In this document: positions 3,603 to 13,984 of the stretch, one piece after another
Layout of the letters: the number at the start of each line of letters is the position of its first letter
How positions within the stretch are numbered: the stretch's first letter is position 1
DNA from: a virus
Taxonomy: Duplodnaviria > Heunggongvirae > Uroviricota > Caudoviricetes
IMG/VR virus record: IMGVR_UViG_2541047698_000010
DNA: 15,255 nucleotides
Direction: 5' to 3' (one strand)
Notes under the pieces: model-generated
What the model saw: the letters and a program-made list of their open reading frames with translations, nothing else
Databases searched by the model: none
Told to the model about the DNA's origin: nothing
Made by a program: the position numbers and the translations under genes

Positions 3603-3965
3603 TTAACGACCTGCTGCGCGGAGTTTTCCGTCAGGTTCACCGGCAAGAGTCAGTAATTGTCCCTGGTCTTCCTGCAGAATAGTCAGGCGACCACCGCGAT
3701 TGACATACATCGGCGTTTCGGTGGTGTCTTCTTCGGAAATTTTCCCGCGGTTAGTTGGGCGAACATATGAGAGTTTGTGTTTGATTTTCACACGGTTCTC
3801 ATCAAACGGTTCGATTTCCAGATTGAGTGAGACCTTCCCTTTGGTTTTCGTGTTCATCACACCGGAAGCGACCTCACTGAGAACTGCGCCGATTTTGGTT
3901 TCAAATACGCCGCCGTCCAGCTCCCCGATAAATGCCTGCACATCAGTACTGCGTTCGCTAGCCAT
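3603..3965 (-). CDS. yfdP: Hypothetical early protein (YfdP-like, 120 aa)
   Basis: Start chosen at MASERSTDVQ (ATG 3965) with a GAGGAG Shine-Dalgarno. The ORF-track N-terminal extension into the GC-rich region is Arg/Cys/Gly-rich and looks non-coding. Confidence 0.6.
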   Translation of the reverse strand: MASERSTDVQAFIGELDGGVFETKIGAVLSEVASGVMNTKTKGKVSLNLEIEPFDENRVKIKHKLSYVRPTNRGKISEEDTTETPMYVNRGGRLTILQEDQGQLLTLAGEPDGKLRAAGR

Positions 3966-4014
3966 TTTGCTGCTCCTCATCATATCGACCCTGCAAGGTC
4001 GGTTGGTTTCTCCA

Positions 4015-4101
4015 CAAAACAGAGAAGAACACCTGCGGTGGCAGCCGCCCGGATGGATTGGGTTATGAGCCCGTCGTCCGGTGATGCTCTTCTCTGTTTT
4101 G
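4015..4101. repeat. Perfect inverted repeat: 14-bp arms (4015-4028 / 4088-4101) around a 59-nt GC-rich loop
   Basis: CAAAACAGAGAAGA at 4015-4028 is the exact reverse complement of 4088-4101. An inner CACC/GGTG pair (4030-4033 / 4080-4083) extends the stem. Confidence 0.7.
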
Positions 4102-4102
4102 C

Positions 4103-4148
4103 AAAAAAGGACGGTACCAGCCGGAAGCAAGGGTACAAACTGGTACCG
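4103..4148 (-). terminator. Candidate intrinsic terminator on the leftward transcript (tL-like), about 140 nt upstream of yfdP
   Basis: 9-bp perfect stem CGGTACCAG (4112-4120) / CTGGTACCG (4140-4148) with a 19-nt loop. On the minus strand it is followed by UCCUUUUUUGC (plus A-run 4103-4108). Confidence 0.5.
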
Positions 4149-4149
4149 C

Positions 4150-4367
4150 CAGGACTACACACAGCATAAAGTTGTGGTGCCGGGTGCCTCCCGGTGCCTG
4201 GCGAAGGTTGCACACCAGGCGGGTGGGTATCCACAGAAGGTCGACTGTCAGCCTCAACCTTAACCCGCGTGCGCTGAGCCGCATTCACCACAACGCTAAG
4301 GATTCTCTCTGGTTGAAAATACTTAGCTGTTATGTGCCTGCTTTTAGCCACATCAGGCGAGGTGGAC
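4150..4367. other. GC-rich, highly structured non-coding block (candidate cis-acting RNA element or ncRNA)
   Basis: GC content clearly above the flanks. Several nested inverted repeats (GCCTGG/CCAGGC at about 4197-4220; AAGGTTG/CAACCTT at 4204-4210 / 4255-4261; GTGG/CCAC at 4223-4234). The ORFs here are Arg/Pro/Gly-rich with no Shine-Dalgarno. Confidence 0.35.
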
Positions 4368-4435
4368 CTGGTTATTCCCCAACAACAAGGATTCGGTTAA
4401 TCTGGATATCCCCAACAACAATAAGAGTATTCAAT
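4368..4435 (+). repeat. Two tandem 34-bp direct repeats (core CTGG-TAT-CCCCAACAACAA) abutting the start of the plus-strand gene
   Basis: 4368-4401 ctggttattccccaacaacaaggattcggttaat and 4402-4435 ctggatatccccaacaacaataagagtattcaat share a 12-nt identical core. Confidence 0.65.
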
Positions 4436-4459
4436 GTGATCGCTGAATTAACGGCAGCA

Positions 4460-4951
4460 ATGACGGCTATTCGTGAAACAGCCCAGATTGCAAAACTAAT
4501 GAACGAGGCAAAAACTCAAGCTGAAGTAAATGCGGCTATTGGTGAGCTGAACTCAAAGCTTGCGTCTATTCAGCGCGAATGCGTGTCTCTCGTTGAACTG
4601 GTGGGCTCTTATCAAGAAATAAATGCTTCTCTCAAAGCTAAAATTGCAGAATTCGAAAACTTTGAGGCTCAGACGGAAGGCTATATCCTTAACCAACTTG
4701 AGTCGGGTACTTTTGTATACTCGAAGGAGGTAATCGTGAACGGTGGCAGCATAACCATGCATCTTTGCCCAAAATGTTTTGGACAAAAGATAGTATCGAT
4801 ACTTCAACCATTCCCGGTTAGCGAAGATGAGCTTTTTCATAAAAGCAGGTGCCTCCACTGTGAAAATAAGTTTCTGATGAATAAAAATCCGGATTACGTA
4901 TCGCCTCCATCCATTGAGGAGTTGTCCAGAAAACTTAACGGCAATCTGTAG
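4460..4951 (+). CDS. Hypothetical coiled-coil / C4 zinc-ribbon protein (about 163 aa), convergent with cI and antisense to the pL operon
   Basis: N-terminal 75 aa are Ala/Glu/Lys/Leu-rich with heptad-like periodicity. C-terminus has CPKC-x24-CLHC. Own plus-strand terminator follows. Alternative GTG start at 4436. The ORF-track extension back to 4172 is GC-rich junk. Confidence 0.6.
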   Translation: MTAIRETAQIAKLMNEAKTQAEVNAAIGELNSKLASIQRECVSLVELVGSYQEINASLKAKIAEFENFEAQTEGYILNQLESGTFVYSKEVIVNGGSITMHLCPKCFGQKIVSILQPFPVSEDELFHKSRCLHCENKFLMNKNPDYVSPPSIEELSRKLNGNL

Positions 4952-4976
4952 ATTGCTACTGTTGTGGATATCCAGA

Positions 4977-4988
4977 TTGTTAAAGAGC
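4977..4988 (-). promoter_or_regulatory. boxA-like antitermination element (GCUCUUUAACAA) on the pL transcript
   Basis: Minus-strand sequence GCTCTTTAACAA is a 12/12 match to the rrn boxA core, about 100 nt downstream of the predicted pL start. A 6-bp hairpin (4941-4956) lies 20 nt further 3'. Confidence 0.4.
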
Positions 4989-4990
4989 TA

Positions 4991-5014
4991 AGCGTCCTGT
5001 AGGGCGCTTTTTTG
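4991..5014 (+). terminator. Intrinsic terminator of the plus-strand zinc-ribbon gene
   Basis: Stem AGCGTCC (4991-4997) / GGGCGCT (5002-5008) with one G-U pair, loop TGTA, followed by TTTTTTG. Confidence 0.6.
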
Positions 5015-5081
5015 TTGCTAATGAATCATCCTAGACTTCATATGCTCCAGGCGGCTACTTCGTGGGCGTCCTGCCTGTTTG

Positions 5082-5126
5082 TTGTTTCTCCTGGGTACAT
5101 TATGTATCCCAAAAGTACATTGTCAA
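5082..5126 (-). promoter_or_regulatory. Candidate pL promoter with OL operators
   Basis: Minus strand reads TTGACA (plus 5121-5126), a 16-17 nt spacer, then CATAAT (plus 5098-5104). Operator-type palindrome ATGTA-N9-TACAT at 5102-5120 and a degenerate copy TTGTT-N9-TACAT at 5082-5100, same geometry as the OR sites. Confidence 0.5.
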
Positions 5127-5130
5127 GTAT

Positions 5131-5153
5131 AAAAAAACCTGCCGAAGCAGGTT
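5131..5153 (-). terminator. Intrinsic terminator downstream of the repressor gene
   Basis: Stem ACCTGC (5137-5142) / GCAGGT (5147-5152), loop CGAA, followed on the minus strand by a 7-U tract (plus A-run 5131-5137). It lies 13 nt past the cI stop. Confidence 0.6.
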
Positions 5154-5165
5154 CATAAACATTGA

Positions 5166-5840
5166 TTAGGCTTTGATTTTGTATCTTCTTGGTTTTCCTG
5201 AGAAAATCACAGTTCCAATTATAGAGCAATTACCGTTGATCTTAATGTAAGGCTCAGGCCAGTTTGGGTTTAACGCTTTGAGATAACGCTGTGTCCCATC
5301 TTCTATCAACCTTTTGAAGGTGGTTTCACCTGTATCGTGCATCAATGCAATAACGTCGTCACCGTGGCAGGCAGGTACTTCAGGATCGACAAAAATCATG
5401 TCTCCCGGGCGGTACTCATCAATCATTGAATCACCTATCACCCGCAAGATATAAGTCATTTCCCCACAGGGTACAGGGCAGGGATACGTTTCTGCTGTGC
5501 TCAAATCAACCTCAGAATATCCAACTTCTTTCCATGCTCCGGCCTGTACCCATGATATGACAGGGACTAATGTGATTTGTTTATTAGTGATTGAAACATC
5601 AGGTTTTTTTGTGATGTTCGTTGTCTGGTGTTCTTGATCGAGCCATCCGACAGGCAGGTCGAAACATTTTTCGATGTGTCGTGCCATGCTGTCACCGATA
5701 TTTTTAGTAGCACCATCTCCCATAAACCTGCTGGTCTGGGTTGGCTCGCGATCAATCATAGTGGCAAAGGAAGAATTCCCGCCAACACCATCTCTCAGTT
5801 TTCTGGCGTTAGACCGCCGGATGTCATGGATTGTTTTCAT
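5166..5840 (-). CDS. cI: cI-like prophage repressor (N-terminal HTH, C-terminal S24 LexA-type autopeptidase domain)
   Basis: 224 aa. C-terminal region has the S24 serine (..VIGDSM..) and a downstream lysine (..TFKRL..). Divergent from the cro-like gene, with palindromic operators between them. Confidence 0.9.
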   Translation of the reverse strand: MKTIHDIRRSNARKLRDGVGGNSSFATMIDREPTQTSRFMGDGATKNIGDSMARHIEKCFDLPVGWLDQEHQTTNITKKPDVSITNKQITLVPVISWVQAGAWKEVGYSEVDLSTAETYPCPVPCGEMTYILRVIGDSMIDEYRPGDMIFVDPEVPACHGDDVIALMHDTGETTFKRLIEDGTQRYLKALNPNWPEPYIKINGNCSIIGTVIFSGKPRRYKIKA

Positions 5841-5846
5841 AACGAA

Positions 5847-5925
5847 ATTAAAACCCTTGTACCGTTAAGGTACAAGTATCTTGAAGGTTCATTTCAATCA
5901 TGTAATATGTATACCGGAGGTACAT
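5847..5925. promoter_or_regulatory. Divergent pRM / pR promoters with OR operators
   Basis: OR1 TTGTA-N9-TACAA at 5857-5875 (perfect palindrome CTTGTACCGTTAAGGTACAAG). OR2 ATGTA-N9-TACAT at 5907-5925. pR is TTGAAG (5881-5886), 16 nt spacer, TAATAT (5903-5908). Candidate pRM on the minus strand (TTGTAC / TTTAAT) would start at or next to the cI ATG. Confidence 0.55.
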
Positions 5926-6162: not shown

Positions 6163-6732
6163 ATGAGGCTAATCGTGGGTAAGCATCACTGGAAAATAGA
6201 AAAACAGCCTGAGTGGTACGTGAAAGCTGTCAGAAAAACTATCGCGGCGTTGCCGAGTGGTTACGCTGAAGCGGCTGACTGGCTCGATGTAACAGAAAAC
6301 GCTTTATTCAACCGCCTTCGTGCAGATGGCGATCAGATTTTCCCGCTGGGATGGGCAATGGTTTTACAGCGTGCTGGTGGCACTCATTTCATTGCTGATG
6401 CTGTGGCGCAGTCTGCAAATGGCGTCTTTGTGTCTCTTCCTGACGTCGAGGATGTGGACAACGCCGATATTAACCAGCGTCTGCTGGAAGTCATTGAACA
6501 GATCGGCAGTTATTCAAAACAGATTCGTTCAGCAATCGAAGACGGTGTAGTGGAACCGCATGAGAAGACAGCAATTAACGACGAGCTGTATCTCTCAATT
6601 TCGAAGCTGCAGGAGCATGCAGCACTTGTCTACAAAATTTTTTGCATTTCAGAAAGTAATGACGCCCGCGAGTGTGCAGCTCCGGGCGTCGTGGCGTCGA
6701 TTGCTTCTGGTTGTGGAGAAACTAACGCATGA
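6163..6732 (+). CDS. CII-like / YdaT-family regulatory protein (tentative)
   Basis: 189-aa ORF directly after cro, in the position of cII. Family assignment is from memory of YdaT/CP76-type proteins and is not confirmed. A GTG at 6175 is an alternative start. Confidence 0.45.
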
Positions 6733-11852: not shown

Positions 11853-11869
11853 TTTTGTGGAGAAAGTTA

Positions 11870-12253
11870 ATGCGTGATATTCAGATGGTTCTTGAACGTT
11901 GGGGAGCGTGGGCGGCTAATAATCATGAAGATGTGACCTGGTCGTCCATTGCCGCCGGTTTTAAGGGATTAATTCCTTCAAAAGTAAAATCTCGCCCGCA
12001 ATGTTGTGACGATGACGCGATGATCATTTGCGGGTGCATGGCCCGTCTGAAAAAGAACAACAGCGATTTACACGATTTATTAGTAGATTATTATGTATGT
12101 GGTATGACATTCATGTCACTGGCAAGTAAGCATTGCTGCTCGGATGGTTATATCGGGAAAAGGTTACAGAAGGCTGAGGGCATAATTGAAGGGATGTTAA
12201 TGGCATTAGATATCCGGTTAGATATGGATATCGTTGCTAATAATTCTAATTGA
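11870..12253 (+). CDS. Q: Late-gene antiterminator Q (phage 82 / DLP12 QuuD type)
   Basis: 127 aa from the ATG at 11870 with GGAGAAA upstream. [26 protein letters not shown]... is recalled as 82-type Q. The ORF-track TTG at 11855 is unlikely. Confidence 0.8.
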
Positions 12254-12275: not shown

Positions 12276-12303
12276 TATTAAAAATGGGGCGTGGAAACGC
12301 CCC
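12276..12303 (-). terminator. Intrinsic terminator for the leftward porin / sRNA transcript
   Basis: Stem GGGGCGT (12286-12292) / ACGCCCC (12297-12303), 4-nt loop, followed on the minus strand by AUUUUUAAU. Confidence 0.5.
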
Positions 12304-12450
12304 CAAAATAAAGGGTAATATATAACAGAAGGTTTATATAGTAAGAAGCAAGGTAGTGCTTCTAAAGGAAGTGGCTTGAGGGCTCCACTTATATGTTGCG
12401 GAGGCAAAGCCTCCCGCAACATATCTTTTTCGTAAGTCAGATTAGAACTG
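12280..12450 (-). ncRNA. ipeX: Candidate IpeX-like sRNA at the porin 3' end
   Basis: By analogy with DLP12, where IpeX spans the nmpC 3' end and intergenic region. Here there is about 170 nt between the porin stop and the minus-strand terminator. No promoter was verified. Confidence 0.3.
12395..12430 (+). terminator. Intrinsic terminator for rightward transcription leaving Q (tR'-like or insulator)
   Basis: 11-bp stem with one bulge (12395-12405 / 12409-12420), loop AAA, followed by AUAUCUUUUU on the plus strand. Not U-flanked on the minus strand. Confidence 0.5.
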
Positions 12451-13524
12451 ATAAACCAGACCTACAGCGACGATGTCGTCGGTATCAATACCAGCTGTTT
12501 TGGTAAACTTACTATCGTCAATTAAGTTGATTTTGTAATCAACAAAAGTGGACATGTTTTTATTAAAGTAGTAAGTAGCACCGACATCGACATACTTGAC
12601 TAAGTCTCGGTCACCATGAACACCAAGGTCTTTACCTTTTGACTGAAGGTAAGCAACAGATGGACGCAGACCGAAGTCAAACTGATATTGTGCTACTGCT
12701 TCAAAGTTTTGTGCTTTGTTTGCAATATGGTTATTACCAAAAACGGTCATATTCTGAGTTTCAGAATATGTGGTAGCCAGATAGATATTGTTCGCATCAT
12801 ATTTCAGGCCTGCAGCCCATACTTCCGCATTTTTGCCGGAGGCATTGAATTTGCTCTTACCATAGGCGACCTGACCGTCAGTGCGATCTGATTTAGCATA
12901 GGTTGCACCCACGCCGAATCCTTCATACTCATAAGTAGTGGAGAAACCGAAACCATCACCATTGGCTTCAGTTACGTCAGTGCGGTCATTTTTACCCTGA
13001 TACTGAGCAGCAAAGTTCAGGCCATCGACCAGACCAAAGAAGTCGTTGTTACGATAAGTTGCAACACCAGTAGTGCGACCAGTCATGAACACATCTGTTT
13101 GGGTCCAGGTATCACCACCGAATTCTGGCAGGACGTCAGTCCACGCACCGATGTCGTATGCTACACCGTAGTTACGGCCGTAATCGATTGAGCCGTAATC
13201 ACCAAATTTCAGGCCTGCAAATGCAAGACGGGTTTTGTCTTTGGAAGAACCTTGAGATTCAGCACGGTTGCCTTTGAATTCATATTCCCACTGACCGAAA
13301 CCAGTCAGTTGATCGTTGATTTGGGTTTCACCTTTGAAGCCAAGACGGGCATAAGTAGTATCACCATCATCTGCATCATTAGAGGAGAAGTAGTGCTTGG
13401 CATTAACTTTCCCGTATAGATCCAGCTTGTTACTGTCTTTATTATAAATTTCAGCTGCCTGAGCAGACATCGCCATCAGTACTGATGCAGCTACAGCAGA
13501 AATTGCCACTGTTAATTTTTTCAT
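12442..13524 (-). CDS. nmpC: OmpC/OmpF-family general porin, prophage-encoded (NmpC / Lc-like)
   Basis: 360 aa with a signal peptide ([23 protein letters not shown]), a beta-barrel pattern with alternating aromatics, and C-terminal ..VGLVYQF. Opposite strand to Q and the lysis genes, as in DLP12 and PA-2. Confidence 0.9.
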
Positions 13525-13900
13525 TGTACGCCCTTTTTTTTGAACTATTATTAAAAAATGATGTCACTGCGCGATAAATATTCATCTAATCAATGCGATT
13601 ATTTCAAGATGTAAGTTTTAGTTTCTCATTTAATTTGTGAAGTAGATCTCTATTTTTATCTAAACCTTTTCTATCTAATCCTATTCATGGCTCTTGTTTG
13701 AACGAAAATAAATCTATTAGCTAATTTATATTAATGGCACTTATTTATAAGAGATCTATAATTCTTTAGCTTAATTTAAACAAACTAAAAATAACATCGG
13801 AAATTATTCATTGGTTATTTGTTGAAGTTTTCTTATGTATTTGTGGTGGTGTTTTGAACACTCGGTGGCATTCTCACAAATATCATTTAGTAGTTTACGT
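13525..13900 (-). promoter_or_regulatory. AT-rich upstream regulatory region of the porin gene
   Basis: About 375 bp of strongly AT-rich DNA with A/T tracts directly 5' of the porin start. No individual promoter boxes were assigned. Confidence 0.35.
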
Positions 13901-13951
13901 ACGTAAAAAATTGGTTATGCTGTTAAGAGTGGTTACTTCGTCACACAGCTT

Positions 13952-13984
13952 AAACCCGCCGTCGAGCGGGTTTTTCCATTTTTT
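13952..13984 (+). terminator. Intrinsic terminator upstream of the lysis cassette (tR'-like)
   Basis: 8-bp stem AAACCCGC / GCGGGTTT (13952-13959 / 13966-13973), 6-nt loop, then TTCCATTTTTT. Confidence 0.65.

What the first reader, a model, noticed from the sequence alone, without database searches (positions are those of the whole stretch)
4103..4148. Intrinsic terminator inside the leftward early operon, upstream of yfdP-like
A 9-bp GC-containing stem followed by a 6-U tract on the minus strand sits between pL and all conserved early-left genes (yfdP-T, xis, int). As with lambda tL1, expression of those genes would then require terminator read-through, which implies an antitermination mechanism even though no N gene is visible.
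Basis: partly seen in the sequence, partly recalled or inferred. Interest (0 to 1): 0.4.

Follow-up and report, generated by a model that had tools for sequence, protein, structure and literature searches.

The report
Terminator of a prophage small RNA
The hairpin is a real transcription terminator, but it is the 3' end of a conserved prophage small RNA (a structured domain, a seed identical to that of the host sRNA RprA, and a DicF-type terminator) in the leader of the early-left operon, so it does not by itself point to a hidden antitermination system.

Summary
The hairpin is real. On the minus strand a 13-bp stem (4150-4138 / 4122-4110), a 15-nt loop, one C and U6 (4108-4103) occur about 0.07 times per shuffled window. 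In the 93%-identical copy in E. coli K-12 prophage e14 (annotated as CDS ymfH), published Term-seq places an RNA 3' end on the last U.

It is not a bare tL1 analogue. It closes a composite non-coding RNA with three parts:
- A pseudoknotted STnc100/PasD-type domain (4294-4171; Rfam 40.3 bits, E 1.7e-7, below the gathering score).
- A 14-nt single-stranded block (4166-4153) identical to the invariant seed of the core sRNA RprA and complementary to the csgD leader.
- A DicF-type terminator.

The same modules lie between the repressor/pL and dicB (Qin-type), kilR (Rac) or xisE (e14).

DicF is the precedent: early intrinsic termination inside the operon plus RNase E processing makes the sRNA, and read-through expresses the downstream genes. 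I found no N gene, boxA or put-like element. K-12 data show little polarity across the e14 copy, and its downstream genes are induced by DNA damage.

The terminator reading is supported; the inferred antitermination requirement is not. Target regulation through the RprA-like seed is inference.

The parts
5099..5126 (-). pL-like sigma-70 promoter (TTGACA-16-CATAAT, 11 of 12), overlapped by an operator-like palindrome (5101-5120) that recurs at the pR side (5906-5925)
5135..5154 (-). Terminator-like hairpin directly after the cI (ymfK-type) repressor gene (5166-5840)
4334..4365 (-). Conserved upstream block with the hairpin GCCUG...CAGGC. In e14 an abundant Term-seq 3' end (1201423) maps to its 3' edge. 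Role unknown.
4101..4324 (-). Extent of the full-length match to Rfam RF02076 STnc100 (40.3 bits, gathering score 47, E 1.7e-7, model positions 1-206)
4171..4294 (-). STnc100/PasD-type structured domain. P1 is 4294-4286 with 4179-4171, P3 is 4261-4255 with 4210-4204, P4 is 4220-4213 with 4203-4196, and the P5 hairpin CCGGG-AGGCA-CCCGG is 4194-4180. The 3' strand of P3 lies in the P4 loop, which makes a pseudoknot.
4153..4166 (-). Single-stranded block UGCUGUGUGUAGUC, identical to the invariant block of RprA and of processed RprA. Its first 13 nt are perfectly complementary to ACUACACACAGCA in the K-12 csgD 5' UTR.
4103..4150 (-). The finding: a DicF-type intrinsic terminator with a 13-bp stem (4150-4138 / 4122-4110), a 15-nt loop, C4109 and U6 (4108-4103)
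4012..4104 (-). Very stable long hairpin (22-bp outer stem) in the yfdP leader, starting in the terminator's U tract. The sequence at its 5' end is also conserved just after the terminator in e14 and ST64B.
3603..3965 (-). yfdP, the first conserved early-left gene downstream of the terminator
4436..5009 (+). Convergent plus-strand moron (171 aa, phrog_1244, function unknown) with its own terminator at 4990-5009. pL transcripts must cross it in antisense to reach the RNA element.

Best explanation
The hairpin at 4150-4103 (minus strand) is the Rho-independent terminator of an sRNA embedded in the leader of the early-left operon of an SfV/e14-type lambdoid prophage.

Proposed mechanism:
1. Transcripts arriving from upstream first copy a ~125-nt pseudoknotted STnc100/PasD-type domain, then a short single-stranded seed, then the terminator. 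They would come from pL after induction. In the lysogen they could come from leakage or from read-through of the repressor transcript.
2. A fraction of polymerases stop at the U tract.
3. Endonucleolytic cleavage just 3' of the domain (...CAACUUU/AUGCUG...) releases a ~63-nt RNA consisting of seed plus terminator hairpin. This is the format of DicF and of processed RprA.
4. The remaining polymerases read through into yfdP...xis-int, as in the dicBF operon.

How firm each step is:
- Shown for the window: the hairpin, its non-chance nature and its homology relations.
- Shown for the 93%-identical K-12 e14 copy and transferred by homology: 3' ends at the terminator and at the domain edge, abundant small-RNA reads whose 5' end lies at the seed, low polarity across the site, and damage-induced expression of the downstream genes.
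- Inferred: RNase E as the processing enzyme, Hfq dependence, the source of transcription in the lysogen, and regulation of RprA-type targets such as csgD through the shared seed.
For: The hairpin and its statistics are.

Homology:
- Rfam STnc100 gives a full-length match, 40.3 bits, E 1.7e-7.
- DicF-model scores fall in a graded series for the homologous module: Tritos DicF 72.5 bits, Rac-type 41.1 and 38.1, e14 28.5, window 15.7.
- The aligned modules share UUGGCGGUA(U/C)CAGUUUU...CCGCCCUUUUU.

Synteny: the unit lies downstream of the repressor and pL and upstream of the first early-left gene in SfV, ST64B, phiES15, 118970_sal3, e14 and Tritos. K-12 Rac carries the module plus domain directly upstream of kilR.

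Experimental data for e14:
- Term-seq 3' ends at the last U of the terminator and 62 nt upstream, at the edge of the domain.
- An analogous 3' end at the domain edge 25 nt upstream of dicB in Qin.
- A 35-nt e14 RNA among the two most abundant small RNAs in K-12, whose reverse complement starts at AUGCUGUGUGUAGUC (PMC4398507).

Precedent: DicF biogenesis by early intrinsic termination plus RNase E processing, with read-through RNA carrying dicB (PMC9438474).

Seed: identity to RprA and to RprAproc. A perfect 13-nt complement in the csgD leader gives a predicted duplex of -24.5 kcal/mol, against -24.6 for RprA and -14.3 for DicF.

Non-coding status: the ymfH reading frame is not conserved in ST64B, phiES15 or sal3, and PGAP calls the window's copy frameshifted.
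Against: - No transcript data exist for this phage itself; all RNA ends come from the e14 copy, which has U5 and a different loop.
- Both Rfam matches on the window are below their gathering scores, and the DicF match on the window alone is not significant (15.7 bits, E 2.5).
- Close variants of the terminator show only one-sided changes, so covariation is not significant there.
- No sigma-70 promoter was found within 120 nt upstream of the unit, and no 5'-end (TSS) data could be obtained. The origin of the transcripts seen in uninduced K-12 is therefore unknown.
- The 15-nt loop and the C spacer are atypical for strong terminators, so the efficiency is unknown.
- Pairing of the seed with csgD is only predicted. 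That RprA represses csgD at this site is recalled from Mika et al. 2012 and Jorgensen et al. 2012 and was not checked in a held paper.
Confidence: 0.7

Rival explanations
1. One reading: a tL1-like regulatory terminator that blocks early-left expression unless a dedicated processive antitermination system (an N-like protein or a put-like RNA) modifies RNA polymerase.
For: The position between pL and every early-left gene. The e14 downstream genes xisE and intE are strongly induced together with ymfH on DNA damage. The conserved structured RNA just upstream of the terminator could in principle act in cis.
Against: No N-like or other early antiterminator turned up among the window's proteins; only a late Q is present at 11855-12253. 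There is no boxA in the pL or pR leaders and no similarity to HK022 putL or putR. In Qin- and Rac-type phages the domain lies downstream of the DicF-type terminator, so it cannot be that terminator's cis antiterminator. Coverage upstream and downstream of the e14 copy is about equal without induction (53 against 47). DicF shows that read-through without N is enough.
Confidence: 0.12
2. It is mainly an insulator. The terminator protects toxic or recombination genes (yfdP...xis, int; kil or dicB in relatives) from read-through of the repressor (pRM-cI) transcript and from leaky pL in the lysogen, and the small RNA is a by-product without a function in trans.
For: cI is on the same strand, 1 kb upstream. 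The module always precedes kil-type or excision genes. 3' ends are detected in uninduced K-12.
Against: A plain insulator would not need the 14-nt seed, which is conserved across E. coli, Salmonella and Cronobacter phages while the hairpin sequence itself is replaced. The seed's identity to RprA's invariant block and the high abundance of the cleaved RNA also argue for selection on the RNA. Measured polarity across the e14 copy is small.
Confidence: 0.15
3. It is a riboswitch-like attenuator. The STnc100-type domain senses a ligand or factor and decides whether the adjacent terminator (or, in other copies, a ribosome-binding site) forms.
For: The domain is a complex, highly conserved pseudoknotted fold. 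Across about 140 copies it is followed either by a terminator or directly by an SD and ATG, which recalls alternative expression platforms.
Against: About 20 nt of conserved single-stranded seed separate the domain from the terminator, and I saw no antiterminator pairing that overlaps P1. I did not search for one systematically. In Qin- and Rac-type loci the terminator precedes the domain. The domain accumulates as a separate RNA end. Canonical copies look like stand-alone genes, with TTGACA hexamers just upstream in the tandem copies inspected by eye.
Confidence: 0.06
4. The region is protein-coding (ymfH-like CDS), and the hairpin is incidental structure inside a gene.
For: K-12 annotates ymfH (103 aa) over the e14 copy. 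ORFs of 73 and 123 aa overlap the element in the window.
Against: The reading frame is absent or truncated in SfV, ST64B, phiES15 and sal3 although the nucleotides are conserved. PGAP marks the window's version as frameshifted. The strand-specific folding signal and the Rfam matches point to RNA.
Confidence: 0.02

Closest known systems
[quoted passage not shown]
   Same: It is an intrinsic terminator inside the repressor-controlled early-left operon of an N-less lambdoid prophage, upstream of toxic genes. The terminator is homologous (UUGGCGGUA(U/C)CAGUUUU...CCGCC-U5/6). The short RNA has the same seed-plus-hairpin format. An STnc100-type domain lies next to it.
   Different: The seed is different, with no ftsZ-pairing sequence. 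The loop is longer. The order is reversed: domain then sRNA here, DicF then domain then dicB in Qin. The Rfam score is far below threshold (15.7 bits on the window).
STnc100 (Rfam RF02076) and PasD prophage sRNAs
   Same: A full-length match to the model includes P1, P2, the CCGGG-AGGCA-CCCGG hairpin and a 3' terminator. The element is prophage-borne.
   Different: It scores 40.3 bits against a gathering score of 47. It lies in the early-left leader, not near Q, holin or esterase genes (Zhu et al. 2026). No promoter of its own was found. Its P2 is of the GC-GGCU subtype. Its linker carries an RprA-type seed.
RprA, in particular its processed 47-nt form (Rfam RF00034)
   Same: It shares the identical invariant block UGCUGUGUGUAGUC immediately 5' of a terminator hairpin. 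The inferred processed 5' end (AUGCUG...) is nearly the same as that of RprAproc (AAUUGCUG...). The predicted pairing with the csgD leader is the same.
   Different: RprA is a core-genome gene with its own Rcs-dependent promoter. The rpoS-pairing part of RprA is absent here. The terminator is different, except in phiES15, where the RprA model reaches 41 bits.
Lambda tL1 with N and nutL antitermination
   Same: An intrinsic terminator between pL and the recombination and integration genes.
   Different: There is no N gene, no boxA/boxB nut site and no evidence that read-through needs a factor. Here the terminator is also the 3' end of an sRNA.
StxS (pR'-tR' short transcript of Stx phages)
   Same: A phage transcript ended early by an intrinsic terminator is processed by RNase E to a short Hfq-type sRNA that uses a seed shared with core sRNAs, RprA among them (PMC7547250).
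   Different: StxS comes from the late promoter and is coupled to Q antitermination. There is no sequence relation to this element.
HK022 putL and putR antiterminator RNAs
   Same: A structured RNA in the pL leader of an N-less lambdoid phage.
   Different: There is no sequence similarity. put is about 70 nt with two stems and starts at the pL transcription start, and a second copy follows pR; here there is a single copy about 0.8 kb from pL. In relatives the domain follows the terminator.

Membership tests
DicF (RF00039) | Covariance-model score at or above the gathering score (48 bits) | tested here: not met
   Window 4109-4163(-): 15.7 bits, E 2.5. Homologous modules score 28.5 (e14), 38.1 and 41.1 (Rac-type); true DicF scores 72.5.
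DicF (RF00039) | Location inside the repressor-controlled early-left operon, upstream of a kil, dicB-type or other early-left gene | tested here: met
   pL at 5126-5099, then the element, then yfdP...int. The layout is the same in Tritos, e14 and Rac.
DicF (RF00039) | The ftsZ-pairing seed (UUUCUGGUGACGUUUGG) | tested here: not met
   The seed here is AUGCUGUGUGUAGUCCU.
DicF (RF00039) | 3' end made by intrinsic termination and 5' end made by RNase E processing of the operon transcript | tested here: inconclusive
   Not testable on the window. For the e14 copy, Term-seq 3' ends lie at the U tract and 62 nt upstream, and abundant reads start at AUGCUG. The nuclease has not been identified.
STnc100 (RF02076) / PasD | Covariance-model score at or above the gathering score (47 bits) | tested here: not met
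   40.3 bits, E 1.7e-7, model positions 1-206 of 206.
STnc100 (RF02076) / PasD | The conserved fold: P1 UGGUG/CACCA, the GAAU-P2 hairpin, the CCGGG-AGGCA-CCCGG hairpin and a 3' terminator | tested here: met
   P1 and P5 show compensatory changes (GC to AU at 2 P1 pairs; CCGGG/CCCGG to CCUGG/CCAGG in 3 of 17 sequences).
STnc100 (RF02076) / PasD | A stand-alone gene with its own promoter in the late region (near Q, holin or esterase genes) | tested here: not met
   It lies in the early-left leader, and no sigma-70 match of at least 8 of 12 lies within 120 nt upstream. The usual context is from Zhu et al. 2026.
RprA (RF00034) | Covariance-model score at or above the gathering score (70 bits) | tested here: not met
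   There is no RprA match on the window at E up to 10. phiES15 scores 41 bits and K-12 rprA scores 118.5.
RprA (RF00034) | The invariant block AUUGCUGUGUGUAGUCUUUGCC directly 5' of the terminator | tested here: met
   14 of 14 nt (UGCUGUGUGUAGUC) are identical in the window and 16 nt in e14, at the same position relative to the hairpin.
RprA (RF00034) | The rpoS-leader pairing region and an Rcs-controlled promoter | tested here: not met
   The sequence upstream of the seed is the STnc100-type domain, not the RprA 5' half. Promoter control cannot be tested here.
Lambda N/nut-dependent terminator (tL1 type) | An N-family antiterminator gene promoter-proximal to the terminator | tested here: not met
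   Pfam and PHROGs scans found no such protein. The only minus-strand ORF in the interval, 4553-4858, has no PHROG family (it was not scanned against Pfam).
Lambda N/nut-dependent terminator (tL1 type) | A nut site (boxA and boxB) in the leader | tested here: not met
   The boxA pattern YGCUCUU(U)A is absent from the pL and pR leaders and occurs only at +12852 and +14628. boxB was not modelled formally.
HK022 put RNA | Sequence or structure similarity to putL or putR, with copies downstream of both pL and pR | tested here: not met
   blastn of HK022 27.5-32.5 kb against the window gives only chance 12-15-nt matches. The window holds a single copy of the domain.
HK022 put RNA | Binding to the RNA polymerase beta' zinc-binding domain and factor-independent antitermination | not testable with these tools
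   Needs biochemistry.

The most novel reading that the evidence does not exclude
N-less lambdoid prophages (SfV/e14-type, Rac-type, ST64B, phiES15), including two cryptic prophages of E. coli K-12, carry in their early-left leader a mimic of processed RprA. It is a ~63-nt RNA with RprA's invariant seed on a DicF-type terminator, cut out of the operon transcript next to a pseudoknotted STnc100-type domain. Through it the prophage would tap into the RprA regulon, for example by repressing csgD (curli and biofilm formation), either constitutively or on induction. The K-12 'gene' ymfH would then be this RNA and not a protein. The pseudoknotted domain, which also precedes dicB, kilR, kil and yfdP, would be a still uncharacterised cis element governing processing or translation of toxic early-left genes.
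Probability: 0.35. Interest if true: 0.7.

Novelty: new variant of a known kind. Interest (0 to 1): 0.5.

Why it matters
- It replaces a speculative "hidden antitermination" reading with a concrete and testable one: an sRNA embedded in the operon, with leaky termination as in dicBF.
- It re-interprets an annotated K-12 gene (ymfH), and "hypothetical proteins" in thousands of E. coli genomes, as a non-coding RNA. Parts of the element occur in 2770 of 5426 complete genomes.
- It links three RNA families that are catalogued separately: the STnc100/PasD domain, the DicF terminator and the RprA seed. They appear here as modules that prophages shuffle at the head of their toxic early-left genes.
- If the RprA-type seed is functional, cryptic and active prophages would feed directly into host control of envelope stress and biofilm formation.

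Tried and rejected
- The Rfam scan at gathering threshold found nothing in the window. The informative hits appeared only with E-value thresholds.
- There are no tRNA or tmRNA genes.
- The plus strand of the region does not fold better than shuffles (z = -0.29, against -2.6 for the minus strand), so a plus-strand RNA was dropped.
- A put-like or N/nut mechanism was rejected: no similarity to the HK022 immunity region, no boxA, no N-like protein.
- An own promoter was not found: no sigma-70 match within 120 nt upstream in the window, and only 8-of-12 matches in a few of the other representatives. TSS data could not be obtained; the Thomason 2015 paper is not held and the Cappable-seq supplement has no entries for the region.
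- RIL-seq supplements are not held.
- A search for a target of the seed inside the window found only the seed's own complementary strand.
- The test for covariation in the terminator among close variants was negative; only one-sided changes occur.
- MAFFT plus RNAalifold could not align the variable middle of the domain. I replaced it with an alignment-free constrained pseudoknot search.
- I considered whether RprA itself derives from an STnc100-type element because of a short 5' resemblance. The STnc100 and DicF models do not hit rprA at E up to 10, so I make no such claim.
- The ymfH coding hypothesis was rejected.

Full report
**Context.** The window is the integrase-to-lysis half of an SfV/SfIV/e14-type lambdoid prophage, 99.8% identical to Escherichia phage PhiR49_1 over the tested stretch (window 3950-5200). 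On the minus strand lie int (1-1164), yfdT, yfdS, yfdR and yfdQ, yfdP (3603-3965) and the LexA-family repressor cI/ymfK (5166-5840). On the plus strand lie cro, a CII-like ymfL, replication genes, a Q antiterminator (11855-12253) and lysis genes. A near-consensus promoter on the minus strand (5126-5099, TTGACA-16-CATAAT) sits just after the cI terminator (5154-5135). It is overlapped by a palindrome that recurs at the pR side (5101-5120 and 5906-5925), so it is a credible pL. Between pL and the finding lies a convergent plus-strand moron (4436-4951, phrog_1244) with its own terminator.

**The observation.** It has a 13-bp stem (three G.U pairs) at 4150-4138 / 4122-4110, a 15-nt loop, one C, and U6 at 4108-4103. 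The module folds at -20.7 to -23.3 kcal/mol (z = -3.2). Hairpins of this class followed by a T-run occur twice in the real window and 0.07 times per dinucleotide-shuffled window. The generic scan missed it only because of the long loop.

**What surrounds it.** The 276 nt from 4365 to 4090 form a block conserved in SfV, SfII, SfIV and mEp460_4F5. The stretch 4146-4310 is 87% identical in Salmonella phage ST64B, and pieces occur in Cronobacter and Klebsiella phages. The minus strand folds better than shuffles (z = -2.6) and the plus strand does not (z = -0.29). At E-value thresholds Rfam gives a full-length match of 4324-4101(-) to STnc100 (RF02076): 40.3 bits against a gathering score of 47, E 1.7e-7. 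The finding's hairpin aligns to that model's terminator. STnc100 and PasD are prophage sRNAs of unknown function. They are usually found near Q, holin and esterase genes (Zhu, Shabalina and Storz 2026) or downstream of stx2 (PMC12370729).

**The element is not a protein gene.** E. coli K-12 has a 93% copy in prophage e14, annotated as the CDS ymfH, lying in the order cohE-ymfJ-[element]-xisE-intE. PGAP calls the window's version a frameshifted pseudogene. The ymfH frame is missing or truncated in SfV, ST64B, phiES15 and 118970_sal3 although the nucleotides are conserved.

**Experimental anchor.** Term-seq of K-12 (Adams et al. 2021, PMC7815308) lists three minus-strand 3' ends in the e14 copy.
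- 1201195 is the last U of ...CUGGUACCGCCCUUUUU, the homologue of the finding's terminator.
- 1201257 lies at ...CACCACAACUUUA, four nt past the domain.
- 1201423 lies in the upstream block.

The spacings of 62 and 166 nt match the sequence. Ghosal et al. 2015 (PMC4398507) report, as one of the two most abundant small RNAs of K-12, a 35-mer whose reverse complement is AUGCUGUGUGUAGUCUUGGCGGUACCAGUUUUUUC. That RNA begins where the 1201257 end stops. Together these data indicate cleavage just 3' of the domain, which releases a ~62-63-nt RNA ending at the terminator. DirectRNA-seq coverage 800 nt upstream and downstream of 1201257 is 53 against 47 without bicyclomycin and 67 against 78 with it. 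The site is therefore not a Rho region, and net polarity is small (file 3). ymfH, xisE and intE are co-induced by AZT (PMC11228462).

**Relation to DicF.** A scan of IMG/VR for the domain's 5' motif showed the same domain directly upstream of dicB, kilR, kil and yfdP. In Qin-type loci the domain is immediately preceded by DicF itself. Phage Tritos has the order cI, three small ORFs, DicF (Rfam 72.5 bits), the domain (STnc100 33.5 bits), dicB, ydfD, exoVIII and xis. In Rac-type loci, including K-12 Rac upstream of kilR, the DicF slot holds ...UGCUGUGUGUAGUCUUGGCGG(C/U)A(U/C)CAG...CCGCCCUUUUU. This is the same seed-plus-terminator module as window 4166-4103. The DicF model scores it 41.1 and 38.1 bits, the e14 copy 28.5 and the window copy 15.7. 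The finding's hairpin is thus a diverged DicF-type terminator. [quoted passage not shown] Read-through RNA carries dicB and is cut by RNase III to give a 72-nt species (PMC9438474). In the Qin version the domain's P1 can extend to about 15 bp and starts about 11 nt after DicF's U tract, so it spans the position where the 72-nt species would end (19 nt past the U tract). This P1 pairing is my own reading of the sequences.

**Relation to RprA.** The seed UGCUGUGUGUAGUC (4166-4153) is identical to the invariant block of the core sRNA RprA. The RprA sequence comes from PMC5606850 and PMC7311995 and the Rfam consensus is AUUGCUGUGUGUAGUCUUUGCC. The block sits at the same place, directly 5' of the terminator. 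Processed RprA, the last 47 nt (AAUUGCUGUGUGUAGUC...), coexists with full-length RprA and is active (PMC9262595). The inferred e14 and window RNA begins AUGCUGUGUGUAGUC.... In phiES15 the similarity extends into the terminator (RprA model 41 bits, E 0.099). The K-12 csgD leader contains ACUACACACAGCA 86-98 nt upstream of the ATG, a perfect complement of the seed. Predicted duplex energies of the 22-nt 5' ends with the csgD leader are:

| RNA | Duplex energy (kcal/mol) | Shuffles as good, of 300 |
|---|---|---|
| window | -24.5 | 1 |
| e14 | -23.9 | 0 |
| RprA | -24.6 | 0 |
| DicF | -14.3 | 138 |

That RprA represses csgD at this site is my recollection of Mika et al. 2012 and Jorgensen et al. 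2012, and I did not verify it in a held paper. Function of the prophage RNA through this seed is inference.

**The domain.** A genome-collection scan with the 3' motif returned about 140 copies across Enterobacteriaceae. They share UGGUGAAU...ACCGGGAGGCACCCGGCACCA.
- RNAalifold on 17 representatives supports P1, with GC-to-AU switches at two pairs.
- It also supports P2 and the P5 hairpin, with CCGGG/CCCGG replaced by CCUGG/CCAGG in three sequences.
- An alignment-free search shows two further helices of very varied sequence at fixed positions, P3 and P4, with the 3' strand of P3 inside the P4 loop. This pseudoknot is met by 93 of 117 distinct domains, against 10.1 (maximum 18) after shuffling.

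The copies are related to one another, so this is strong but not independent evidence. A 3' end at the domain's edge is seen in both e14 and Qin, so the domain accumulates as its own species. Its function is unknown. The relative order of domain and DicF-type terminator differs between phages, so the domain is unlikely to be a put-like antiterminator for that terminator.

**Antitermination.** I found no N-like protein, no boxA in the leaders and no similarity to HK022 putL or putR. The DicF precedent and the K-12 coverage data make leaky termination sufficient. The 15-nt loop, the C spacer and the U5-6 tract fit a moderate terminator, but its efficiency has not been measured.

**Verdict.** It is not evidence for a hidden N-like system.

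The kind of element, an intra-operonic prophage sRNA with an intrinsic terminator, is known. This composite variant was not mentioned in any paper my searches of the held library returned, and neither were its RprA-identical seed or its presence as ymfH in K-12.

Noticed in passing
window 6658-6710 (minus strand), inside ymfL (6163-6732): The window holds an exact match to the second very abundant e14 small RNA of Ghosal et al. It corresponds to the K-12 Term-seq 3' end 1203751(-), antisense to ymfL, with 1.4e7-5e7 reads. It looks like an OOP-like antisense RNA against the 3' end of the CII-like gene.
   Followed up: partly
window 4012-4104 (minus strand): An extremely stable long hairpin (22-bp outer stem; -56.6 kcal/mol for 145 nt, z = -4.3) starts in the terminator's U tract and fills the yfdP leader. 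The sequence at its 5' end is also conserved just after the terminator in e14 and ST64B. It may be an RNase III or translation-control element.
   Followed up: partly
window 4334-4365 (minus strand): A conserved block upstream of the domain (hairpin GCCUG..CAGGC) is shared with e14, SfV, phiES15 and Klebsiella phages. In e14 the most abundant local Term-seq 3' end (1201423) maps to its edge. Neither a promoter nor a function was identified.
   Followed up: partly
L038, L039, L050, L076, L035 (Superficieibacter, Enterobacter); L016, L029, L033 and others: STnc100-type domains occur in tandem arrays about 220-270 nt apart, each with its own terminator and some with a TTGACA hexamer just upstream (seen by eye). 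Other copies sit 100-200 nt upstream of a conserved 233-aa gene with a signal-peptide-like N-terminus (not scanned; my guess is a KdgM-family porin), or directly before small ORFs, two of which begin with a lipoprotein-like signal peptide.
   Followed up: no
K-12 loci: L004 (e14), H189 (Rac, upstream of kilR); Qin-type phage locus L250 (Tritos): K-12 carries three paralogous arrangements of the same modules: dicF-domain-dicB, RprA-seed module-domain-kilR, and domain-RprA-seed module-xisE. ymfH is probably a mis-annotated RNA.
   Followed up: partly
window 4436-5009 (plus strand): A convergent moron between pL and the RNA element encodes 171 aa with a coiled-coil N-terminus and a CxxC...CxxC C-terminus (phrog_1244, function unknown). 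It has its own terminator at 4990-5009, so pL transcription runs antisense through it. SfV and e14 carry different cargo at this position.
   Followed up: partly
window 12286-12424 and 12442-13524: An OmpC-like porin moron (360 aa, minus strand) lies between Q and the lysis genes. It is flanked by a minus-strand terminator (12303-12286) and the only other long-stem hairpin with a T-run in the window (+ 12391-12424).
   Followed up: no
window 13734-13973 (plus strand): A promoter-like site (13734-13762) is followed about 190 nt later by a strong terminator (13952-13973), upstream of the holin gene. It is a likely pR'-tR' short transcript, analogous to lambda 6S RNA or StxS. It has no Rfam match.
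   Followed up: no
L001 3434-3466 (SfV record 25034-25066): The SfV authors annotated a putative rho-independent terminator just upstream of the conserved block. They did not annotate the homologue of the terminator studied here.
   Followed up: no
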